Source of the DNA: the human T2T-CHM13v2.0 reference genome, Homo sapiens
Direction: 5' to 3' (one strand)
DNA length: 64,000 nt
Assembly: GCF_009914755.1 (NCBI RefSeq)
Contig: NC_060940.1
Program-made: the position numbers and the translations under genes
Shown here: positions 5,466-41,490 of the stretch, in pieces
Layout: every line of letters starts with the position of its first letter
Numbering within the stretch: the first letter of the stretch is position 1
Notes under the pieces: model-generated
The model's database searches: none
Told to the model about the DNA's origin: nothing
The model's input: only the letters and a program-made list of their open reading frames with translations

Positions 5466-6830
5466 ACCACAGGTATGTATGTCACATGCCTGCATACGTC
5501 ACATGTATGTGTATCTCACACGCCTGCATACACCACAGGTATGTATGTCACACGCCTGCATATGTCACATGTATGTGTCTCACACGCCTGCATAAGTCAC
5601 ATGCATGTGTGTCTCACGCCTGCATACACCACAGGTATGTATGTCTCACGCCTGCATATGTCACATGTATGTATCTCACACGCCTGCATATGTCACATGT
5701 ATGTGTATCTCACATGCCTGCATATGTCACATCTATGTGTATTTCACACGCCTGCATACACCACAGGTATGTATGTCTCACGCCTGCATGTCACATGTAT
5801 GTGTGTCTCACACGCCTGCATAAGTCACATGCATGTGTCTCACACGCCTGCATACACCACAGGTATGTAAGTCACACGCCTGCATGTCACATGTGTGTCT
5901 CACATGCCTACATGTGTCACATGTATGTGTATCTCACACGCCTGCATACACCACAGGGATGTATGTCTCACGCCTGCATATGTCACATGTATGTGTATCT
6001 CACATGCCTGCATGTCACATGTATGTGTCTCACACGCCTGCATACACCACAGGTATGTATGTCTCACGCCTGCATATGTCACATGTATGTGTATCTCACA
6101 CGCCTGCATGTCACACGTATATGTCACACGCCTGCATATGTCACATGTATGTGTATCACACACCTGCATACACCACAGGTATGTATGTCACGCCTGCATA
6201 TGTCACATGTATGTGTGTCTCACACGCCTGCATAAGTCACATGTATGTGTCTCACGCCTGCATACACCACAGGTATGTATGTCTCACGCCTGCATGTCAC
6301 ATGTATGTGTATCTCACACGCCTGCATATGTCACATGTATGTGTATCTCACACGCCTGCATATGTCACATGTATGTGTATCTCACACGCCTGCATACACC
6401 ACAGGTATGTATGTCTCACGCCTGCATATGTTACATGTATGTGTATCTCACACGCCTGCATACACCACAGGTATGTATGTCTCACACACGCCTGCATATA
6501 TCACATGTATATGTGTCACACATGCCTGCATACACCACATGTATGTCACACACATCTGCATATATCACTTGTATGTGTCTCACACACCTGCATACACATA
6601 TATGCCTCACACGCCTGCATCTATCATGTGTGTGTCTCACACACCTGCATATATCACATGTATGTGTCTCACAGCTGCATACACCACAGGTATGTGTCTC
6701 ACACACGCCTGCATATATCACATGTATGTGTATCTCACACGCCTGCATATGTCACATGTATGTGTATCTCACACGCCTGCATATATCACATGTATGTGTG
6801 TGTCACACACACACCTGCATACATACAGGC
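5466..6830. repeat. About 1.35-kb CA/TG-rich minisatellite (30-34-bp units of two types)
   Basis: Alternating cacgcctgcatacaccacaggtatgtatgtct and cacgcctgcatatgtcacatgtatgtgtatct units. Confidence 0.95.
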
Positions 6831-9326
6831 ACATGGACACCTGTGTGCACACCAGTCCCTCCCTTCCCCGTCACCATCAGGTTCAGCCGGGCCTGTGGTC
6901 ACTGCTTCCCCGAGGCAGCTGCAATGGGGCCCCGGCTCCCCCTACATGGTGCGTCTGATCAGGTTGGGACTCGCTCAGGTAGCTCTCATCACAAGGTCCT
7001 TGTGCACTGTTGCGGCTGCTCTTGGTGGCCCTTCTAGAGCCTTCCTGAGCCAGAGCAGACTCCTGCTCCCCCCAGACCCCCTGGGAGTCGATTCTGTCCC
7101 CTTCTTCCTGGCCGCAGGTCGGTGCAGCCGCTTTCCTGCCTGGAAGAGTAAAGTGGACCCTGTGTGAAAACATTGACGACGTGGCAAATGAGCAGCAAAT
7201 TGATCAATACGAATGATCACGCCCCATGTGCATCTCCTCAGCAGCCACAAGAGAGACGAGGTCACTGGAAGATAAACATCCGTGACTGCACCTCATGATC
7301 CATCACGCACGACGGCCGCAGCATCTCCTGCCAGCTGCCGGCACAGACAAGAGCACGGGATGGACGACCGCGGTAGCAACGTGGGGCTCATCTGCCTCTC
7401 TCTGAGCAGGAAGCCCGTAGGTCCCCACAGGCGGGTGCACGGAAGGGGTGGGTCCTGGGCCCAACAGGCACCCCCTGAGCACCAGCCCGTCTGAGGGTGG
7501 GCGGAGGGCGCTGCCGCAGGTCCCCACATACCCAGCGCACGCTCACCCCACACTGGAGGCACCTGCCGGGTTCTGACACCCCTCGAGGTGCCTTCCCAGG
7601 GTTCTCACACCCACTGAAGGCAGCGCGCTCAGCCTGCTTTGCACATGAGCCGCTGAGGCAGGCGAGTTGAGGGCGAGGGTGTGAATCACGAGCTTGGGGC
7701 CAAAGCCCAAGGTCGTCCCCTCTGGCCGGCAAGCTCAGGCTCACACGGGGAGCCACCAGGCTGGACTGGGTGCAGCTTACGGACGTGGCGCGTGCTGTGG
7801 GCGTCGGGCCGCGGCTCCTCCATGCAGTACTTACACTGCTGTCTGCAGATCGCACCCAATCAGGAGGGAATGGTCCAGGCAGGTGGGCAAGGCCACGGTT
7901 TGGCCAGGTAAGGCTGGGAGGGCCCAGGATGATTGTGCGTTGAGCCAGGCAGATCTGGAGAGGCGGAGGGATGGGGACGGAGCGCCATGCAGAGGCCGCT
8001 CGGTCCTCAGGAGCTGAGCATCACCCTGGGAGTCTCAAGGAGGGTGTCCCCTGGCCTTAGCGGGCAGCCAGGGCCAGCATGTGGTCTGTGGCAGCCGGTC
8101 TCAGAGGTGGCCTGGTTCGCAGTCTTGCCGGATGGAGATCCCCAGCTCCTAGGGCAAGGGCAGGTGGGGTGGGGCCGCCTCGGTCAGCTGATAGGAACTG
8201 AACTGAGAAGGCTGTGAGCCGCTGAGTCGCCCTAACTGCAGGGTGGTCCTGCGGGCAGTACTGAGCCCGCCCTGCTGGGCACCCCACAGCCCCTGTGGCT
8301 CTCCAGCTGCCACTGAGGCCGGACGCCTCATGAGGAGGCTCCCATCTGTGGGTGGCAGAATGACGGCCCCGAAGACCCCCCGCTTCCTCACCCGAAGACC
8401 CCCGCTTCCTCACCCTGGGACCTGTGAGTTCACACAGCAGCGGGGACCTGCGACTGTGGACGGCACATCAGCTCCCTCAACAGGGAGGCTGCCCTGGGTG
8501 ACCCGCGAGGGCACAGGGTACCTCCGTCCTGCTGAGTGGAAGAGGGAGGCCATGGCGGAGGCGGGCGTGAGGGGGACTGGCCTGCCACTACTGGCTTCGT
8601 GAGGTGCCCCCAGCCAAGGAGAGGCCTCCCGAAGCCGGAAGAGGCGGAAAATGGATTCTCCCAGGAGCCTCCAGAAGGAACCTTGGTGTTGGTGGAATGG
8701 GATGTGAGAGGACACGCGGGTGATGTGTCTTGGGTCACACCAGTTCCCGGTCCCCGCACCAGCCCGCCCTGGGCGGGAAGCCTAAGAGGAATGGAGGGGC
8801 CATCGTGGGGCTCTCCCGGAAACTGGCCCCGGGTGCCTCGGTCCCTGCGTCAGTGCGGGGTTTCGGTGGCCGCCCTGCTGGCTCCGGGCACTCCCTCCGT
8901 CTTCCTGCCACGCGGCTGGTCCTTCCTGGGCTGGGCTGAGTCACCCTCCATGCCCACCCGTCATACCCGGCAAGAGCTGGGGGCGTGAAGCCAGGCCCAG
9001 GTGGGCTGTGGCGGCATCCAGGTGGAAGGACGTGGAGGACTCGGAGGCGGAGGGGTCTCCAGGGCAGGGCAGGGCCAGTTGCCTGGGGCCATCTGCTGTG
9101 TCCAGGAGCCCGGCGCTGCCACTGGCCTTGCCCCAAGGCCCAGCTCTGCCCTTCATCCCTTCAGCACCTCCCCGTACCTTCCTTCCATGGGTCTTAAGCT
9201 GTGGCAAGTCCTTAAGCTGGGACGGCCAGCGCCAGCCCTGCCCCCAACAGGTCACTCAGCGGCTCGGAGCCCACGTCCTCCTCGGTGACACAGGAAAATG
9301 GTGCAGTTGTGCAAGGGCATGAGAGG

Positions 9327-9512
9327 GTCCCATGGAAGGCACGTTCCAGAAGGTTCTGTCCCATGGAAGGCACGTTCCGGAAGGTTCCATCCCATGGAAG
9401 CCACGTTCCAGAAGTTTCCATGCTGTGGAAGGCATGTTCCGGAAGTTTCCGTCCCGTGGAAGGCACGTTCTGGAAGGTTCTGTCCGGTGGAAGGCACGTT
9501 CCAGAAGGTTCC
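9327..9512. repeat. 31-bp minisatellite x6, each unit containing a perfect TTCnnGAAnnTTC heat-shock element
   Basis: HSE cores at 9344, 9375, 9406, 9437, 9468, 9499. Confidence 0.92.
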
Positions 9513-11214
9513 TAGCCCAGCTCCAAACACAGGCTGCAGGCTCAGCAGAGGGGTCTTCTTCTTGCCCACAGTCCCTGACCAGTGGGCTCCCCAGGGCCCT
9601 GTCGGAGCTGGAATGGGTGGAGCTTGGTGCCTGCAGGCCAGTCAGCACATCTTCAGAATCCATGGTGCTCCCAGGCTGGCCCAGGGCCTTAGGAGCACAG
9701 GGTGGGCACAGGACCCCAGGCTCTGCCAGCCAGGCCCTGACCGTCCTGGGCCAGCCGCTGCCCCCGTTCTGCATCCGCCCCTGTGCGATGCGACCTCTCT
9801 GGTGGCGCCCATCCCAGCTTCATTCCCCTGTGGGCCCTGCTTCAGTCTGCCTGGGACACGTGGGCGCGTGTGTGAGTTCGCATCAGCGAGCATGCGTGCA
9901 GCGTGTCACATATACATACACGTGGGCGCACCTGCACACCCATGTGTCACAGAGGAGGGAGACGGACTCACACGTGGTGGCCCTAGCCACACCCTCAGTC
10001 CTCTCTAAAGCACCAGCCGGTGCCCACCCAGGCAGCCCCTCATCATAGGCTCACAGGGCACGCCCCCCATTGCCAGTCTGACCAGACACTCACAACCATT
10101 CAGTTACTCTAGCCACGGAGTCATCAGTCTCCTTCATTACCACCTGCCCACCCTCCTCTGCCGCACAGCAAAGCCCATTAAGACAGCAGCAATGCGAGCA
10201 GCACGTGGTGCCTTTCATGCATCAGCCGCTTGCCCATATTCCCACCCCATGGGGAAGAGCTTCATCTTAGCTAGAAAAAGATGACACCCCACACCAGCTG
10301 AATAGGCTGCGTGCACACACACCTCCACACGCGCACATACACACACATGCTGACAGGTGTGCACATATGCGCACGTGCACACACAAATACGCACGCACAG
10401 CACACACAGACACATAAGTGTCCATAAACAACACAGATCTGGCCTCAGAGCCACCCTCCAGGTGCGGCTGCCCCGGGCCCCAGGTGCGGCTGCACCGTGC
10501 TGTGGTGACAGCCACAGCAGGATCAGAGCAGCCTCAAGGCCCTTCAGGAGCCGGCAGAGCTGGCCCCAGGCTGAGCTTGGGGAGGTGAGCCCAGGCCTGG
10601 GACCGACGCTTCCCAATTGGCGGGCAGAGTCCATGCAGCCCCTCCCAGTCTACACGGAAGCCCACGTGTCCACCTCCTGCTTCTGCTGTCCCCAGGACAG
10701 TGAAATTTACTAATGTGGATTAAGAACATTTTTTAAATAAAAAAACATTTTACACATTGAGGACGGAAGAGAGAAGATTACGGCCAACCAACCCCGTGCA
10801 CTTCCCCGCCCAGGTTCATGGAGTCTGAGCCCTCTGGCCTCCTGAGCCTCTGGGCTCTGTCACCAGGTGGGCGCCTTCCCCAGCCCGTGAGGCTCGCCGC
10901 TCACGGGGGCCCCGATGCCTGAGTGATGTCATGGATTTAGGTTTCAGTGCTGGCACATGTGGCCCGCAGAGCTCAGCTCCTCTGTGAGGGACGTTTCGGC
11001 TCCTGTGGGCTTTGCTGTCCCCCATGCTGACTCTGCCTCACTTGGTTGTCCTCAGGTCACTCTGTGCGGTGTGCACTGACCCCAGCCAGTGGATGTTCCC
11101 CGTCCAAGAGCAAAGCTACAGTCGGCTGCAGGTGCAGTGACTTTTGCACAGTGGAAGAATTTCTCCAGAAGATATTCCTGCAGGTGGAATCACTGGATCG
11201 TAGGCCCAGATGTC

Positions 11215-11605
11215 TTCCACTTACTTGATTTTGCCTGATGCCTTCCAAGGAGGCTGTGCACAGCAGGTGTGAGATGCCCCATCTCACCAACCGGCCAACA
11301 TCCCGATGGGAGATGTTGAGTTTTCACCACGCTGCTGAGTGTGACGTGGAATCTTCTTATTTTAGCTTGCATTTCCCTGATTACAAGTCAGGTGGAACAT
11401 CTCGAATATGTTTCTGGGCCATTTGATTTTCCTGCAAGTCACCTGTTCCAGTTCTTTGCCCATTTCCTGTTGGGTTGGTCAATATTTTTTGTGATTACAC
11501 GTTGGATACATGGCTGGCCTTTGGCTTGCCTTTGACTTCGTTTGTTCTATCGAAGCATGTGCAGAATTGTTAAATTTTAATGTATTCAAATGCATTAATC
11601 TCATT
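11215..11605 (-). mobile_element. Old L1M fragment (antisense)
   Basis: ttgcatttccctgattac...gaacatct...ggccatttg...tctttgcccattt resembles antisense L1 ORF2 end. Confidence 0.6.
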
Positions 11606-11611
11606 TCTTAT

Positions 11612-11910
11612 TTTTGTTGTTTTATTTTTTGTTTTTTGTTTTTTTGAGACAGAGTCTCGCTCTGTCTCCCAGGCTGGAATACAGTGACACGATCTTGGCT
11701 CACTGCAACCTCTGCCTCCCCACTTCAAGCAATCCTCCTGCCTCAGCTTCCTGAGAAGCTGGGACCACAGGCATGTGCCATCATGTCCGGCTAATTTTCT
11801 TTTTAAAATGTTGTAGCAATGGAGCCTGGGCTCAAGCCATCCTCCCACCTCAGCCTGCCAAGTAGCTGGGACCACAGACATGTGCCACTGCCACGCCCAG
11901 CTAGCCTTTA
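11612..11910 (-). mobile_element. AluJ-like element(s), rearranged
   Basis: T-tract + gagacagagtctcgctctgt...; a second partial right arm follows at about 11820-11905. Confidence 0.85.
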
Positions 11911-12252: not shown

Positions 12253-13747
12253 CGGGGTGTGGCTGCTCAGCCTGGAATCCTGGCCCTGGGGAAGGCTCCG
12301 GATCTGTCCCATGGTTTTTGAACCATCCTGGGTGCAGGCCTCTTTCTGGGCCTCCCCTGGTCCAAGTCCACTCTGTCTGGAGAAGGAGAAAGAGGATAAC
12401 AGGAATGGCTGGGCCCTGGAGCCCTGATCCCCCAGGACGGCCCAGCCTTTCTTCCCAGCCCTGACGGCCGCAGAGCCCTGCCTGTGGGCCAGGCCTGGAG
12501 GGGTCATCGGACGGGTCGCTGAACAGCCTCTCTCCCACCTGCAGCTGGAGACGGAGATTAAACGCGGGGAGACTGGCGGCGTCAGCTAAATTGATTCTAT
12601 TACAGCGACTGATTTAATCTGAATGGTCGTTACTGTGATTTATACGGCTGCTTGGGATTCTTTGCTCCCAAATTTGTCTCCCGTCCACTTGATATTGATT
12701 GAAAGACGATGAAGGAGGTGGGGAGGGGCGGGGCTGCCTGAGCTGACTCAGGGACCCCTAACCCCTTCCTCTCTGCCCCGATTGCAGGGGTGCCAAGCAC
12801 AGCTGTGCTGGGAAGAGCAGGAGGCAGCGGAGAGGACCTGGTGCCCTCCGTGTCCAGCACACGCCCCCTGGCCTCTGCCCTCCCTCCCACCCAGCTCTGG
12901 CCCAGAAGCGCCTGCCACCAGGCGGCCCATCCTTCCAGAAGCTTCTAGCAGATGGGACCGTCATCTCCCAGCCGTGGCCCTGGCCGGCCCCCCCAAAGGG
13001 CAGGGTGTGGAATGACCCAGGGCAATGCTGGGCTCCTCCGATGACGAAGCCGGAAGCTCAAAGGGTCTCTCTGAGAACTGGGGGCCTTACCCCAAGTTTC
13101 TTCATGTCCAGGGATCAGAACTGAGAGCTGCCAGCTCCTGAGGCAGCCCTGCCCTCCACAGGTGCCAACCACCACCCAGGAGACGGGATGGTAGGAACAG
13201 TAAGATGGTGGTCAGGAGGCAGCCACCCTGGCCTCCTCCAGTCTGGGCACCACCCAGCTCCAAGAGCCAGGCTGGGTGGCCAGGGCACTGCCACTGTCCC
13301 ATGGCACAGGCTACCTTCAGGGACACTGGGGATGAGGCAGCCCCCTGGACTATAGATGCAGCCGGGGCCCCTTTAACTCCCATCCCTACCCCGTGCCCTT
13401 CTCCCTACCCAGAAGCTCCTGTCCTTGCAAAGGACAGCACCCCCGCCCGCCCTCCCTGGGCAGCCAGCAGTTCTCACTGCCCTCTCCGGGGTGCTCAGTG
13501 CCTGTGGCTGACGGGGAGGACAGGTTTTGGGGGCACTGCCCTGTGCTCCCCATGCCCACCCTACCATGGGCCCAGCATGCTCAGGAGGACCCCGTCACAC
13601 GACCTTCCTTCCAGGGCCCCAGAGCATGCGGAGCCCCTCCTCCCCTCTGCGGCCCCTTCCTGCTCCCTCTTCCACCCTCCTCCCTCCCTCCTGTCACAGT
13701 GTTGGGTTATGGGGATAAAGGACAGAGGCCTGGGGCACTGAGGGAGG

Positions 13748-14868
13748 GACAGAGACACCCACGCAGCGGGGGAGAGGACAGACGTCCGGAACTGGGTAGA
13801 GATGGGCCGTGGGTGGGATCTGCTGGGGACACAGACCCACGCAGCAGGGGAGAGGACAGACGTCCGGAACTGGGTAGAGATGGGCCGTGGGTGGGATTTG
13901 CTGGGGACAGAGACCTATGCAGTGGAGGAGAGGACAGACGTCCGGAACTGGGTAGAGATGGGCCGTGGGTGGGATCTGCTGGGGACACAGACCCACGCAG
14001 CAGGGGAGAGGACAGACGTCCGGAACTGGGTAGAGACGGGCCTGCCGTGGGTGGGATCTGCTGGGGACACAGACCCACGCAGCAGGGGAGAGGACAGACG
14101 TCCGGAACTGGGTAGAGACGGGCCTGCCGTGGGTGGGATCTGCTGGGGACACAGACCCACGCAGCAGGGGAGAGGACAGACGTCCGGAACTGGGTAGAGA
14201 TGGGCCGTGGGTGGGATTTGCTGGGGACAGAGACCTATGCAGTGGAGGAGAGGACAGACGTCCGGAACTGGGTAGAGATGGGCCTGCCGTGGGTGCGATC
14301 TGCTGGGGACACAGACCCACGCAGCAGGGGAGAGGACAGACGTCCGGAACTGGGTAGAGATGGGCCGTGGGTGGGATCTGCTGGGGACACAGACCCACGC
14401 AGCAGGGGAGAGGACAGACGTCCGGAACTGGGTAGAGACGGGCCTGCCGTGGGTGGGATCTGCTGGGGACACAGACCCACGCAGCAGGGAAGAGGACAGA
14501 CGTCTGGAACTGGGTAGAGATGGGCCTGCCGTGGGTGCGATCTGCTGGGGACACAGACCCACGCAGCAGGGGAGAGGACAGACGTCCGGAACTGGGTAGA
14601 GATGGGCCGTGGGTGGGATCTGCTGGGGACACAGACCCACGCAGCAGGGGAGAGGACAGACGTCCGGAACTGGGTAGAGACGGGCCTGCCGTGGGTGGGA
14701 TCTGCTGGGGACACAGACCCACGCAGCAGGGAAGAGGACAGACGTCCGGAACTGGGTAGAGATGGGCCGTGGGTGGGATTTGCTGGGGACACAGACCCAC
14801 GCAGCGGGGGAGAGGACAGATGTCTGGAACTGGGTAGAGATGGGCCTGCCATGGGTGGGATCTGCTGG
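13748..14868. repeat. VNTR, 14 copies of 78/82-bp units
   Basis: gacgtccggaac anchor at 13781, 13859, 13937, 14015, 14097, 14179, 14257, 14339, 14417, 14499, 14581, 14659, 14741, 14819. Confidence 0.97.
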
Positions 14869-15771
14869 GGAGGGGAGCGTTCGCATGGTGTGGGGGGCTG
14901 GACAGCCACTCTCTCCGGGACCACAGCTTTCTGGGCTGGGGCAGGACAAGGCCACTCATGCCCCACTTGCCCTTCTGAGGTTCAGCCAAATGAGGCTCCC
15001 ACCCCCATGACTCACAAGGCAGCTGGGAGCTCCGGCACTACCCGTGGGGATGGTCAGGACTCTAGGGGCCTTGGGGGGTGTGGGCCACTCCACCGTCAGC
15101 CCCAGCCCCATCCCCAGCCACAGCCTGTCTTTGGAGGGTGCTGACTGGGGGCCATTGCAGCTTATGGATCCCTGTGAAAGCCTGAACATCGGGAGCAGCC
15201 TGGTGACCTCTGCTCTCTGGTTCCCCCAACAGTGCTGTCCCACGTCCCCACCCCTGTGGCCAGCTCCGCCCACTCAGCCTCAGCCTTGCTGGGGCCTGGC
15301 CCGACCTCAGGAGTCCCTGCTGGCCTGGCCACCCTTGTGCCTTCGCCTCAGCCATCGGGGAGGCTCGGGTGGTCTCAGGGCCAACGCCAGGTGAGACCTC
15401 AGGTGAGCTGCCCCCCACCTTCCCAGTGCTCAGGGCCAGGGGAAGGGTGGTGGGCATGGACCACACTTGCAGCCCCCCCCTGGGGCATGCCTGGCCGCTG
15501 GCCTCCCTGATCCCTGCCCGGGTTGGGGCTCCAAGGGCAGGAAGTCAAGGCGTCCACGCTTGGTGACAGTGCTGGGCCGGCCTGGAGGGGGCAGGCATGT
15601 CCAGCATGGAGACGGAAGCAGGGAAGAGCCCATCGTCCCCTCCCAGCTCTGCCCTGAACACCCTCCAGCAATCGGAGGAGCCCGCTGCCCTTCCCCCACC
15701 CGCCTCCACTGGCATCCCTGGAGCCACACTGCCCCCTGCCGGGGCTGGCGGGTGTGATGGGCCACCAGGCC

Positions 15772-33779: not shown

Positions 33780-33960
33780 TCGGTGCTCCCGGAAGACCCC
33801 CCTTGAGTCAGCTCCTCTAGGAAGCCCTCCTGGTTACACTGTTACGTGGTCTTTGTCCATTTCTGTTCCTGCCACTAACCACGGTTCCCCAGGGCAGGGA
33901 CCCAAGCTCACTGGTGTGCTAGGTGCCCAGCACAGAGTAGGTGCTCTGTAAATGCTTACC
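33780..33960 (+). mobile_element. L2 3'-end fragment
   Basis: ggaagccctcct...agggcaggga...ctcactgg...gtgcccagcacagagtaggtgctctgtaaatg resembles the L2 tail GTGCCTGGCACATAGTAGGTGCTCAATAAAT. Confidence 0.6.
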
Positions 33961-35295
33961 CAGCGCACAGTAGGTGCTCTGTAAACACCCAGCGCACAGT
34001 GGTGCTCTGTAAACACTTATCCAGCACACAGTAGGTGCTCTGTAAACGCTTACCCAGCGCAGAGTAGGTGCTCTGTAAAGGCTTACCCAGCGCAGAGTAG
34101 GTGCTCTGTAAATGCTTACCCAGCGCACAGTAGGTGCTCTGTAAACACCCAGCGCACAGTGGTGCTCTGTAAACGCTTACCCAGCGCACAGTAGGTGCTC
34201 TGTAAAGGCTTACCCAGCGCACAGTAGGTGCTCTGTAAACGCTTACCCAGCACACAGTAGGTGCTCTGTAAACGCTTACCCAGCGCACAGTAGGTGCTCT
34301 GTGAACACCCAGCGCACAGTAGGTGCTCTGTAAACGCTCACCCAGTGCACAGTAGGTGCTCTGTAAACGCTCACCCAGCGCACAGTAGGTGCTCTGTAAA
34401 GGCTCACCCAGCGCACAGAAGGTGCTCTGTAAAGGCTCACCCAGCGCACAGTAGGTGCTCTGTAAACGCTCACCCAGCGCACAGTAGGTGCTCTGTAAAG
34501 GCTCACCCAGCGCACAGAAGGTGCTCTGTAAAGGCCCACCCAGCGCACAGTAGGTGCTCTGTAAACGCTTACCCAGCGCACAGTAGGTGCTCTGTAAACG
34601 CTTACCCAGCGCACAGTAGGTGCTCTGTGAACACCCAGCGCACAGTAGGTGCTCTGTAAACGCTCACCCAGCGCACAGTAGGTGCTCTGTAAACGCTCAC
34701 CCAGCGCACAGTAGGTGCTCTGTAAACGCTCACCCAGCGCACAGTAGGTGCTCTGTGAACACCCAGCGCACAGTAGGTGCTCTGTAAAAGCTCACCCAGC
34801 GCACAGAAGGTGCTCTGTAAACGCTTACCCAGAGCACAGTAGGTGCTCTGTAAACGCTTACCCAGCGCACAGAAGGTGCTCTGTAAACGCTTACCCAGCG
34901 CACAGAAGGTGCTCTGTAAACGCTTACCCAGCGCACAGTAGGTGCTCTGCAAACACCCAGCACACAGTAGGTGCTCTGTAAACGCTTACCCAGCACACAG
35001 TAGGTGCTCTGTAAACGCTTACCCAGCACACAGTAGGTGCTCTGTAAACGCTTACCCAGCGCACAGTAGGTGCTCTGTAAACGCTTACCCAGTGCACAGT
35101 AGGTGCTCTGTAAACGCTTACCCCGGGCACACAAGGTGCTCTGTAAACACTTACCCAGCACAGAATAGGTGCTCTGCAAACGCTTACCCAGTGCAGAGTA
35201 GGTGCTCTGTAAACGCTTACCCAGCGCACAGTAGGTGCTCTGTAAACGCTTACCCAGTGCACGGTAGGTGTTCTGTAAATGCTTATCCAGTGCCA
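33924..35295. repeat. CDH15 intron 5 VNTR, about 42 copies of 33-bp (and 28/29-bp) units
   Basis: acccagcgcacagtaggtgctctgtaaacgctt repeated. Confidence 0.97.
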
Positions 35296-36361: not shown

Positions 36362-37510
36362 CTGGCACACAGATGCCGGCAGACGCAGATGCCGACACAC
36401 ACAGATGCCCACACACAGATGCCGGCACACACAGATGCCCACACACAGATGCCGGCACACACACATGCCGGCACACACAGATGCCCACACACAGATGCCG
36501 GCACACACACATGCCGGCACACACAGATGCCCACACACAGATGCCGGCACACACAGATGCCGGCACACACAGATGCCCACACACAGATGCCGGCACACAC
36601 AGATGCCCACACACAGATGCCGGCACACACACATGCCGGCACACACAGATGCCCACACACAGATGCCCACGCACAGATGCCGGCACACACAGATGCCCAT
36701 GCACAGATGCCGGCACACACAGATGCCCACACACAGATGCCGGCACACACAGATGCCCACGCACAGATGGCGGCACACACAGATGCCGGCACACACAGAT
36801 GCCGGCACACACAGATGCCCACACACAGATGCCCACACACAGATGCCCACGCACAGGTGCCCACACACATGCTGGCACACAGATGCCCACGCACAGGTGC
36901 CCACACACAGATGCCCACGCACAGGTGCCCACACACAGATGCCAGCACACACAGATGCCCACACACACATGCCCACACACAGGTGCCCACACACAGATGC
37001 CCACACTGTCCACACACCGATGCTGGCACACATAGATGCCCACACACAGACACCCACACACAGATGCCCACACACAGGTGCCCACACACAGATGTTGGCA
37101 CACACAGGTGCCCACACACAGATGCCGGCACACACAGATGCCCACACACAGATGCCCACACACAGATGCCCACGCACAGGTGCCCACACAAAGATGCCGG
37201 CACACACAGATGCCCACACACAGATGCCCACACACAGATGCCGGCACACACAGATGCCCATACACAGATGCCCACGCACAGGTGCCCACACACAGATGCT
37301 GGCACACACAGATGCCCACACACATGCCCACACACAGATGCCGGCACACACAGATGCCCACACACAGATGCCAGCACACACAGATGCCCACACACAGATG
37401 CCGGCACACACACATGCCGGCACACACAGATGCCCACACACAGATGCCGGCACACACAGATGCTGGCGCACACAGATGCCCACACACAGATGCCCACACA
37501 CAGATGCCCA
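36362..37510. repeat. CDH15 intron 7 VNTR of 14/16-bp units (cacacagatgccca / cacacagatgccggca)
   Basis: Direct reading; starts about 15 nt after the exon 7 donor. Confidence 0.97.
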
Positions 37511-40605: not shown

Positions 40606-41490
40606 AACCAGCCACGCCGCTTCCTCCCCAGCTCCGCCTCCTCCCTAACCCCGCCCCCTCATTACCAGCCACGCCGCTTCCTCCCCAGCTCCGCCTCCTC
40701 CCTAACCCCGCCCCGTCATTACCAGCCACGCCGCTTCCTCCCCAGCTCCGCCTCCTCCCTAACCCCGCCCCCTCATTACCAGCCACGCCGCTTCCTCCCC
40801 AGCTCCGCCTCCTCCCTAACCCCGCCCCCTCATTACCAGCCACGCCGCTTCCTCCCCAGCTCCTCCTCCTCCCTAACCCCGCCCCGTCATTACCAGCCAC
40901 GCCGCTTCCTCCCCAGCTCCGCCTCCTCCCTAACCCCGCCCCCTCATTACCAGCCACGCCTCTTCCTCCCCAGCTCCTCCTCCTCCCTAACCCCGCCCCC
41001 TCATTACCAGCCTCGCCGCTTCCTCCCCAGCTCCTCCTCCTCCCTAACCCCGCCCCCTCAGTACCAGCCACGCCCCTTCCTCCCCAGCTCCTCCTCCTCC
41101 CTAACCCCGCCCCCTCAGTACCAGCCACGCCCCTTCCTCCCCAGTTCCACCTCCTCCGCAACACCACCCACTCATTACCAGCCACGCCGCTTCCACCCAA
41201 CCCGCCCCCTGCTCGCCAACCCCGCCCCCTCATTACTAGCCACGCCCCTTCCTCCCCAGCTCCGCCTCCTCCCTAACCCCGCCCCCTCATTACCAGCCAC
41301 GCCCCTTCTCCAGCTCCGCCTCCTCCCCAACACCACCCACTCATTACCAGCCACGCCGCTTCCACCCAACCCGCCCCCTGCTCGCAAACCCCGCCCCCTC
41401 GTTGCCAGCCACGCCTCTTCCCCAAGCCGGCCTCTCCTTACCAGCCAAGCTCCCTCCTCCACAACCCGGTCCCCTCCTCCCTAACCTCGC
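40606..41490. repeat. CDH15 intron 11 C-rich VNTR, 57-bp unit (about 9 clean copies plus a degenerate tail)
   Basis: taccagccacgccgcttcctccccagctccgcctcctccctaaccccgccccctcat at 40663, 40720, and onward. Confidence 0.95.

What the first reader, a model, noticed from the sequence alone, without database searches (positions are those of the whole stretch)
9327..9512. Minisatellite that is a phased array of six perfect heat-shock elements
Seen: every 31-bp unit holds TTCnnGAAnnTTC (9344 TTCcaGAAggTTC, 9375 TTCcgGAAggTTC, 9406 TTCcaGAAgtTTC, 9437 TTCcgGAAgtTTC, 9468 TTCtgGAAggTTC, 9499 TTCcaGAAggTTC). The units differ at spacer and flanking bases but never at the nine core positions. Established: three inverted nGAAn pentamers form the canonical site for one HSF1/HSF2 trimer. 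Inference: a 31-bp period is about 3 helical turns, so up to six trimers would sit on one DNA face. This could be a stress-inducible enhancer or promoter for the local lncRNA, ACSF3 or CDH15, tunable by copy number.
Basis: partly seen in the sequence, partly recalled or inferred. Interest (0 to 1): 0.8.

Follow-up and report, generated by a model that had tools for sequence, protein, structure and literature searches.

The report
Heat-shock-element minisatellite inside LINC00304
A small tandem repeat inside the human non-coding gene LINC00304 really does carry one textbook heat-shock-factor binding site per unit, and published gene lists show the gene is HSF1-bound and stress-induced, but nobody has shown that the repeat itself is the site or that it regulates neighbouring genes.

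Summary
Window 9327-9512 is a single-copy 31-bp x 6.0 minisatellite, and each unit holds a perfect TTCnnGAAnnTTC at the stated coordinates. The statistical arguments for function are weak. The six sites are copies of one founder. Core invariance (naive P=0.015) falls to P~0.19-0.40 once CpG-driven variation is allowed for. Periods of 30-34 bp are common among the 11 minisatellites in this window. The genome holds 76,189 perfect HSEs.

HSF1Base lists LINC00304 as a K562 HSF1 "direct interaction" from the Vihervaara 2013 ChIP-seq. LINC00304 is also in the PRO-seq up lists for K562 heat shock and MCF7 arsenite. The array holds the only perfect HSEs inside the gene.

I could not see peak coordinates. 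The array is not a called dTRE. Read-through from ACSF3, 3 kb upstream on the same strand, could explain the induction.

Verdict: an ordinary subtelomeric VNTR that is probably a real HSF1 landing site for LINC00304. Nothing supports ACSF3 or CDH15 control, and copy-number tuning was not tested. It is a new member of a known kind, of moderate interest.

The parts
9327..9512 (.). Single-copy minisatellite, 31 bp x 6.0 units. Lies 2,081 bp downstream of the LINC00304 TSS, 5,073 bp downstream of the ACSF3 3' end and 10,358 bp upstream of the CDH15 TSS.
   Evidence: TRF; register and variable columns. Unique in the genome: 1 hit; 6 of 7 hits of a 25-mer at up to 3 mismatches are here; 1,501 bp including flanks gives 1 hit.
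9344..9356 (+). HSE 1, TTCCAGAAGGTTC; upstream fourth pentamer GCA matches 2 of 3
9375..9387 (+). HSE 2, TTCCGGAAGGTTC; upstream GCA matches 2 of 3; also GGAANNTTCC at 9379
9406..9418 (+). HSE 3, TTCCAGAAGTTTC; upstream CCA matches 1 of 3
9437..9449 (+). HSE 4, TTCCGGAAGTTTC; overlaps the only CCGGAAGT (ETS-core word, recalled motif) at 9439
9468..9480 (+). HSE 5, TTCTGGAAGGTTC
9499..9511 (+). HSE 6, TTCCAGAAGGTTC; lies in intron 3, just past the annotated exon-3 end
   Evidence: hub gene table
8242..9493 (+). LINC00304 exon 3. It contains 5.4 of the 6 units. Its 3' end falls inside unit 6 at GGAAG|GCACGT, an apparent GC donor. The exon 4 acceptor is ...CCTCAG|G at 11056.
   Evidence: hub gene table
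7032..7044 (+). One-mismatch HSE (TTCTAGAGCCTTC), 202 bp upstream of the LINC00304 TSS (7246). An alternative candidate for the published HSF1 peak.
12933..12950 (+). Isolated perfect HSE with an overlapping one-mismatch match (four pentamers), 1.3 kb past the LINC00304 3' end. A second alternative candidate.

Best explanation
By origin this is an ordinary GC-rich subtelomeric minisatellite. One 31-bp unit that happened to contain a canonical heat-shock element (gGCAc gTTCc aGAAg gTTCc: three perfect pentamers plus one 2-of-3 pentamer) was duplicated to six copies. The result is a homotypic cluster of six HSF-trimer sites in exon 3 of LINC00304.

Mechanism I think most likely: on heat or proteotoxic stress, HSF1 trimers (and probably HSF2) load onto the array by direct sequence recognition. 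This would be the event reported as the K562 HSF1 ChIP-seq target 'LINC00304'. The bound array would then act as an intragenic, stress-responsive enhancer or internal promoter that raises nascent transcription of LINC00304.

Shown: the sequence anatomy, single-copy status, the gene-level HSF1 listing and the gene-level PRO-seq induction.

Inferred, with my odds:
- The ChIP peak lies on the array: about 0.65.
- Binding causes the LINC00304 induction: about 0.35-0.4.
- Any effect on ACSF3 or CDH15: 0.1 or less.

I see no evidence of selection to keep the HSE cores.
For: - Six of six units carry perfect TTCnnGAAnnTTC, and five of six have a 2-of-3 fourth pentamer in phase.
- The array holds the only perfect HSEs inside the LINC00304 span 7246-11609.
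- HSF1Base Table S3, erythroleukemia-specific sheet, has the row 'ENSG00000180422 LINC00304 Vihervaara et al.(2013) pubmed:23959860 direct interaction N/D'. LINC00304 is also in Table S2, in two separate lists that I take to be the 'putative' and 'direct' sheets.
- That list is small: 851 K562-specific genes by the paper's text.
- Ghosh Dastidar 2023 Supplementary Data 3 holds the LINC00304 promoter row three times: in sheet 2 (MCF7_As_up_promoters), in sheet 3 (K562_HS_up_promoters), and a third I could not locate. The lists hold 2,974 and 1,760 of about 23,000 promoters.
- The same paper reports that HSF1 binds many remote, poorly accessible sites with a higher prevalence of its motif. That makes occupancy of a six-motif cluster plausible even without open chromatin.
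Against: - I saw no peak coordinates. Vihervaara 2013 and Mendillo 2012 are not held, and the HSF1 peak file of Ghosh Dastidar 2023 (MOESM5) could not be read.
- Two other HSE-like sites could be the peak: 7032 (one mismatch, 202 bp upstream of the TSS) and 12933.
- None of the 4 dTRE sheets has a chr16 entry starting 89,225-89,229 kb in hg19. The only hit was on chr9. So the array is not a called site of divergent nascent transcription. The paper describes dTREs as intergenic, which may exclude it.
- None of the six RefSeq enhancer spans listed in the hub table overlaps the array; three more are unlisted.
- LINC00304 is not in MCF7_HS_up, because its first occurrence comes after sheet 2 begins.
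- ACSF3 ends 3 kb upstream on the same strand. Stress-induced read-through (recalled phenomenon) could raise gene-body PRO-seq counts; genes were called with DESeq2 and no read-through filter is described.
- The same paper stresses that most HSF1 binding is uncoupled from transcription (abstract).
- Core invariance is not significant after the CpG correction.
Confidence: 0.5

Rival explanations
1. Neutral VNTR with a fortuitous HSE word. The array is one of many subtelomeric minisatellites and is not meaningfully occupied. The published HSF1 peak lies elsewhere (the promoter-proximal 7032 site, 12933, or a non-motif site). The PRO-seq 'induction' of LINC00304 is read-through from ACSF3.
For: - The window holds 11 minisatellites with period of at least 14 and at least 3 copies. 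Five have periods of 30-34 bp.
- The six HSEs are one event by descent.
- Seven of 10 variable columns are CpG columns and no core column is one. Core invariance then has P=0.19 (column test) or 0.25-0.40 (event model at 6-10x).
- The genome has 76,189 perfect HSEs, against about 18,000 HSF1 peaks in the deepest dataset I read.
- With a per-unit chance of 8e-5 to 2.4e-4 and tens of thousands of human minisatellites (recalled), a few such arrays are expected by chance.
- There is no dTRE call at the array.
- ACSF3 is on the same strand, 3 kb upstream (hub table).
Against: - The K562 HSF1 target list is small (851 K562-specific genes). A 4.4-kb lncRNA that happens to hold six perfect HSEs landing in it by chance is unlikely.
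- The alternative sites are much weaker: one mismatch at 7032, and a single site outside the gene at 12933.
- LINC00304 appears in stress-up lists from two cell lines and two stimuli.
Confidence: 0.3
2. HSF1 binds the array but the binding has no transcriptional output. This would be opportunistic 'remote' binding, or a local sink for trimers, with no effect on LINC00304 or its neighbours.
For: Ghosh Dastidar 2023 reports that most HSF1 peaks lie outside promoters, dTREs and enhancers, and that binding is globally disconnected from activation. No dTRE is called at the array.
Against: LINC00304 itself is in three of the four stress-up sheets' worth of occurrences, which would then need the read-through explanation.
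Confidence: 0.25
3. The unit is read by another factor (ETS/GABP at CCGGAAGT, HIF/ARNT-type RCGTG, a Rel-like GGAAnnTTCC), or it acts as RNA. In LINC00304 exon 3 the array folds into a long imperfect hairpin.
For: In the array, CCGGAAGT occurs once, RCGTG five times on the minus strand, and GGAANNTTCC at two positions (motifs recalled). The RNA fold is -75.4 kcal/mol, z=-4.05, with 0 of 200 shuffles as stable. The DNA fold has z=-2.52.
Against: - None of these words is present in all six units, whereas the HSE is.
- STAT (TTCNNNGAA) and CACGTG score 0.
- The hairpin follows automatically from tandem copies of a unit made of inverted GAA/TTC blocks.
- No Rfam family reaches its gathering score in 8200-11700. 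The best match over the array is mir-734 at 24.7 bits against a threshold of 100.
Confidence: 0.07

Closest known systems
Canonical HSE clusters of HSP gene promoters (for example HSPA1A/B, HSPH1)
   Same: Alternating inverted nGAAn pentamers, three or more per site, and several sites per regulatory region. Bound by HSF1/HSF2 trimers on stress.
   Different: HSP-gene HSEs sit next to the promoter and are usually contiguous runs of 4-8 pentamers. They are not tandem duplicates (recalled). Here six minimal three-pentamer sites lie 31 bp apart inside an exon, 2.1 kb from the TSS, and arose by minisatellite duplication.
Satellite III arrays bound by HSF1 in nuclear stress bodies
   Same: A tandem repeat that recruits HSF1 on heat shock and is transcribed into non-coding RNA.
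   Different: Those are pericentromeric satellite repeats (search listing of PMC8535310). That they span megabases, occur at several loci and use GGAAT-type units rather than canonical HSEs is recalled. This array is 186 bp, single-copy, subtelomeric, and made of textbook HSEs.
Transcription-factor-binding minisatellites and VNTR enhancers (INS VNTR, HRAS1 minisatellite, MAOA uVNTR; recalled)
   Same: A minisatellite whose unit carries a factor site, so that copy number could scale regulatory strength.
   Different: Those are known to be polymorphic, with allele-dependent activity. Polymorphism and activity are untested here, and the factor would be HSF.
GGAA-microsatellite neo-enhancers used by EWS-FLI1 (recalled)
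   Same: Rich in GGAA/TTCC: 18 GGAA words on the two strands of the array.
   Different: Not a contiguous GGAA tetranucleotide run. The GGAA words are spaced and inverted, which is the HSE grammar.

Membership tests
Heat shock element (HSF binding site) | At least three contiguous nGAAn pentamers in alternating orientation | tested here: met
   6 of 6 units have TTCnnGAAnnTTC. The phase map shows 3/3, 3/3, 3/3 plus an upstream 2/3 pentamer in 5 of 6 units.
Heat shock element (HSF binding site) | Stress-inducible occupancy by HSF1/HSF2 at the site | not testable with these tools
   Gene-level only: LINC00304 is listed as a K562 HSF1 'direct interaction' from Vihervaara 2013 in HSF1Base Table S3. 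I did not see peak coordinates.
Heat shock element (HSF binding site) | HSF-dependent stress induction of the linked transcription unit | tested here: inconclusive
   LINC00304 is in the K562_HS_up and MCF7_As_up PRO-seq lists and not in MCF7_HS_up. HSF1 dependence is unknown, and read-through from ACSF3 is not excluded.
Minisatellite / VNTR | Head-to-tail tandem units of roughly 10-100 bp | tested here: met
   Period 31, 6.0 copies, 85% matches, no indels; spacing of 31 bp throughout.
Minisatellite / VNTR | Copy-number polymorphism among individuals | not testable with these tools
   Only one human assembly (G000) is held. No paper pairs VNTR with ACSF3, and none of the 15 listed LINC00304 + 'repeat' papers (17 found) is about a repeat, judged by title.
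Transcribed enhancer (dTRE) | Divergent nascent transcription called at the site | tested here: not met
   None of the 4 dTRE sheets (MCF7 and K562, NHS and HS) has a chr16 entry beginning 89225-89229. Caveats: the paper describes dTREs as intergenic, and my hg19 position is an offset estimate.
Interspersed repeat or satellite family | Multiple dispersed copies in the genome | tested here: not met
   The array alone gives 1 hit. The 25-mer at up to 3 mismatches gives 7 hits, 6 of them here. The 1,501 bp with flanks gives 1 hit.
Element under purifying selection on the HSE core | Core positions vary less than mutation alone predicts | tested here: inconclusive
   Naive P=0.0146. After setting aside the 9 CpG columns, 3 of 22 columns vary and P=0.186. 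The event model gives 0.25-0.40 at a 6-10x CpG rate.

The most novel reading that the evidence does not exclude
The array is a copy-number-variable, HSF1-bound 'rheostat'. Human alleles with different numbers of HSE units would recruit different numbers of HSF trimers. That would set heritable differences in heat or proteotoxic inducibility of LINC00304, and possibly of the ACSF3-CDH15 neighbourhood. It would be a natural allelic series for studying how HSE number and spacing tune HSF1 output in native chromatin.
Probability: 0.12. Interest if true: 0.7.

Novelty: new member of a known kind. Interest (0 to 1): 0.45.

Why it matters
If the array is the HSF1 site, it shows how a stress-responsive element can arise in one step: a sequence that already holds one HSE is amplified by minisatellite duplication. 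It would also give a compact native locus with six identical, regularly spaced trimer sites for testing HSF1 cooperativity, dosage and copy-number effects. It would give LINC00304 a defined stress input; the papers listed by my searches treat it mainly as a biomarker (titles and abstract starts only). If the array is not bound, it is a useful caution. A perfect, phased motif array can be a by-product of repeat biology, and invariance of the core positions can come from where the CpGs lie.

Tried and rejected
- **Genome-wide count of triple-HSE arrays.** I used the single-site count and an analytic per-unit probability instead. I did not run two-site patterns of 35 places or fewer, because about 600 or more chance hits are expected.
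- **Primary ChIP-seq papers.** Mendillo 2012 and Vihervaara 2013 are not held.
- **Phrase searches across table cells.** They failed because tabs are not treated as spaces. The known row 'PTPRN2 Mendillo' was not found. Searches were term-format errors. I then paged through HSF1Base Table S3: LINC00304 is absent from the breast part read and the cervix part read, and present in the K562 sheet.
- **HSF1 peak file of Ghosh Dastidar 2023.** Not readable.
- **Higher-order 93-bp period.** Rejected. Units three apart share 23, 28 and 26 of 31 positions. Adjacent units share 29, 27, 25, 24 and 27.
- **Embedding in a transposable element or satellite family.** Rejected.
- **Rfam family.** None at gathering score.
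- **STAT or E-box reading.** Rejected, 0 matches.
- **Literature searches that found nothing linking this locus to heat shock or to a repeat.** LINC00304+HSF1: 0. HSF1+ACSF3+ChIP-seq: 0. VNTR+ACSF3: 0. LINC00304+'heat shock': 1, an androgen-receptor review. 'Heat shock element'+minisatellite: 4, none on this locus by title or abstract start. HSF1+ChIP-seq+'heat shock'+'tandem repeat'+HSE: 4, none relevant by title. LINC00304+repeat: 17, of which 15 were listed, none about a repeat in the gene by title.

Full report
**1. What is there**

The window is human chr16 (T2T-CHM13), about 1 Mb from the q end, as given in the hub table. Tandem Repeats Finder reports one array at 9327-9512: period 31, 6.0 copies, 85% matches, no indels, score 246. 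The direct-repeat tool shows copies spaced exactly 31 bp apart. The pattern TTCNNGAANNTTC has 8 perfect matches in the 64-kb window. The other two are isolated sites at 12933 and 16189. Dinucleotide shuffles expect 0.14, and 0 of 100 reach 8. With the units in register, 10 of 31 columns vary and none is one of the nine core positions.

**2. Anatomy**

- Each unit reads gGCAc-gTTCc-aGAAg-gTTCc: three perfect pentamers, preceded in 5 of 6 units by a 2-of-3 pentamer in phase. Nothing in phase follows downstream. Each unit is therefore a minimal site for one trimer, not an extended HSE.
- The array is single-copy. The 186 bp give one genome hit. A 25-mer at up to 3 mismatches gives 7 hits, 6 of them here and one chance hit on chr1. 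The 1,501 bp that include both flanks give one hit. It is not part of an interspersed repeat or satellite family.
- It lies in exon 3 of LINC00304, 2,081 bp downstream of the TSS. The annotated exon end (9493) falls inside unit 6 at GGAAG|GCACGT, an apparent GC donor. The same word occurs in 5 of 6 units.
- The unit is built of inverted GAA/TTC blocks, so the single strand folds into a long imperfect hairpin. For RNA this is -75.4 kcal/mol, z=-4.05, with 0 of 200 shuffles as stable. For DNA z=-2.52.

**3. Is it more than chance or descent?**

The six HSEs are tandem copies of one founder, so they count as one independent event. Shared variants in adjacent units (columns 1 and 27 in units 3 and 4) show duplication of neighbours.

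A 31-nt unit of this composition contains an HSE on either strand in 17 of 200,000 shuffles (8.5e-5). The analytic value is 7.8e-5 for local composition and 2.4e-4 for uniform composition. The genome holds tens of thousands of minisatellites (recalled), so a handful of HSE-bearing arrays are expected by chance. Perfect HSEs are common: 31,067 + 45,122 = 76,189 in this genome, against 43,994 for the reversed control pattern. That is about 1 per 41 kb.

It has a naive P of 0.0146. But 7 of the 10 variable columns lie in the 9 columns that form a CpG in at least one unit, and no core column does. Among the 22 non-CpG columns only 3 vary, and the chance that these miss the 9 core columns is 0.186. 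An event model gives 0.25 to 0.40 if CpG columns mutate 6-10 times faster. So there is no significant sign of constraint.

The helical argument is also weak. Thirty-one bp is 2.95 turns, drifting -17 degrees per unit and -86 degrees across the array. The window contains 11 minisatellites with period of at least 14 and at least 3 copies, and five of them have periods of 30-34 bp. Only this one carries HSEs. A period near 31 bp is simply common here.

**4. Outside evidence**

No paper in the searchable library pairs LINC00304 with HSF1 (0 papers). The one paper that pairs it with heat shock is an androgen-receptor review.

Supplementary tables do connect them, in two places.

- *HSF1Base* (PMC6888953; I read the abstract, sections 7 and 20, passages, and parts of the supplement). 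LINC00304 (ENSG00000180422) appears in two separate lists of Table S2, which I take to be the 'putative' and 'direct' target sheets. In Table S3 it is absent from the breast-specific part I read and the cervix-specific part I read. It is present in the erythroleukemia-specific sheet as 'LINC00304 Vihervaara et al.(2013) pubmed:23959860 direct interaction N/D'. By the paper's text that class holds 851 genes. I could not read Vihervaara 2013 itself. From memory it is an HSF1/HSF2 ChIP-seq of K562 with and without heat shock, with roughly 1,200 HSF1 loci after heat shock.
- *Ghosh Dastidar et al. 2023* (PMC10654513; I read the abstract, sections 6, 8, 11, 21 and 24, passages, and supplement searches). 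Supplementary Data 3 (MOESM6) has four sheets: MCF7_HS_up, MCF7_As_up, K562_HS_up and K562_As_up promoters. The row 'chr16 89224627 89226627 LINC00304 +' occurs three times. One is near part 11 (sheet 2, MCF7 arsenite). One is near part 20 (sheet 3, K562 heat shock). I could not locate the third. It is not in sheet 1 (MCF7 heat shock). These lists hold 2,974 and 1,760 of about 23,000 promoters.

A small lncRNA that appears both in a short HSF1 ChIP list and in stress-induced nascent-RNA lists from two cell lines, and whose only perfect HSEs are this six-fold array, is unlikely to be a coincidence.

**5. What limits that inference**

- I never saw a peak coordinate. The HSF1 peak file of the 2023 paper (MOESM5) could not be read.
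- Two other HSE-like sites are near enough to be assigned to the gene. One is a one-mismatch site at 7032-7044, 202 bp upstream of the TSS. The other is a four-pentamer site at 12933-12950.
- None of the four dTRE sheets has a chr16 entry beginning 89,225-89,229 kb. So the array is not a called site of divergent nascent transcription. The paper treats dTREs as intergenic, which may exclude a gene body. My hg19 position is an offset from the listed TSS and assumes no indels.
- None of the six RefSeq enhancer spans listed in the hub table overlaps the array; three more are unlisted.
- ACSF3 ends 3 kb upstream on the same strand. Stress-induced read-through (recalled phenomenon) could inflate LINC00304 gene counts. 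The methods mention only DESeq2.
- The 2023 paper's own message is that most HSF1 binding is not coupled to activation. It also reports that motif-rich sites in poorly accessible chromatin are bound. That helps the case for occupancy and weakens the case for function.

**6. Neighbouring genes**

Human CDH15 (ENSG00000129910) has 0 occurrences in the held part of the HSF1Base supplement. Mouse Cdh15 is listed as a spermatocyte HSF1 target and as HSF2-occupied in mouse testis (passage of bioRxiv 10.1101/506881). Nothing ties that to this human repeat.

ACSF3 is listed as a putative and, apparently, direct target. It is not in the K562 sheet, and I did not see its source row. The gene spans 62 kb, so the listing cannot be assigned to this site. 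I found no support for the array regulating ACSF3 or CDH15.

**7. Verdict**

By origin this is an ordinary subtelomeric minisatellite. By content it is a genuine cluster of six canonical HSEs.

My best reading (confidence 0.5) is that it is the HSF1 landing site behind the published LINC00304 ChIP-seq call, and that it acts, if at all, on LINC00304 itself.

- Rival: a neutral VNTR with the peak elsewhere and read-through induction (0.3).
- Rival: bound but with no transcriptional output (0.25, overlapping the first two readings).
- Rival: another factor or an RNA-level role (0.07).

It is a new member of a known kind: a factor-binding minisatellite, or equally an HSF1 target site. Its occupancy is probably already present in public data but has not been described as a repeat in anything my searches reached. 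Supplements I could not open may already contain the answer. Interest is moderate (0.45). The boldest reading that survives is a copy-number rheostat of heat-shock inducibility (probability about 0.12).

Noticed in passing
window 5468-6808: A 41-copy minisatellite of 32-34 bp (TRF score about 1,300) ends about 440 bp upstream of the LINC00304 TSS (7246). It fills much of the gap between ACSF3 and LINC00304. No perfect HSE was found in it.
   Followed up: no
window 3927-57655 (whole window): Very dense minisatellite landscape: 11 arrays with period of at least 14 and at least 3 copies in 64 kb. Several lie inside CDH15 introns (33926-35290, 33 bp x 42; 36366-37510, 14/30 bp; 40607-41421, 57 bp x 14). 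Five arrays have periods of 30-34 bp.
   Followed up: partly
window 9489-9499 and 11041-11056: The annotated LINC00304 exon 3 ends inside repeat unit 6 at GGAAG|GCACGT, an apparent GC-AG intron; the acceptor is CCTCAG|G at 11056. The same donor-like word is present in 5 of 6 units, so changes in copy number or unit choice could alter exon length.
   Followed up: partly
window 9327-9512, + strand RNA: The exonic repeat folds as a long imperfect hairpin of about 170 nt (-75.4 kcal/mol, z=-4.05). This follows from the dyad symmetry of the HSE units. Whether it matters for the lncRNA is unknown.
   Followed up: partly
window 13757-14871: A large complex tandem array (TRF periods 160, 242 and 402; scores 1,782-2,006) spans the LINC02138 TSS (14237) and abuts the RefSeq enhancer at 14867-15715. 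Its unit contains CGTCCGGAACTGG.
   Followed up: no
window 12933-12950: An isolated four-pentamer HSE (TTCCAGAAGCTTCTAGCA) lies midway between the LINC00304 3' end and the LINC02138 TSS.
   Followed up: no
whole genome G000: Perfect TTCNNGAANNTTC is strongly strand-asymmetric genome-wide: 31,067 forward against 45,122 reverse, with controls of 22,281 and 21,713. This suggests large one-stranded repeat arrays that carry the word.
   Followed up: no
literature (mouse Cdh15): Mouse Cdh15 is listed as a spermatocyte-specific HSF1 ChIP target in HSF1Base, and as HSF2-occupied in mouse testis. Human CDH15 is not listed. Whether the mouse site is orthologous to anything in this window is unknown.
   Followed up: no
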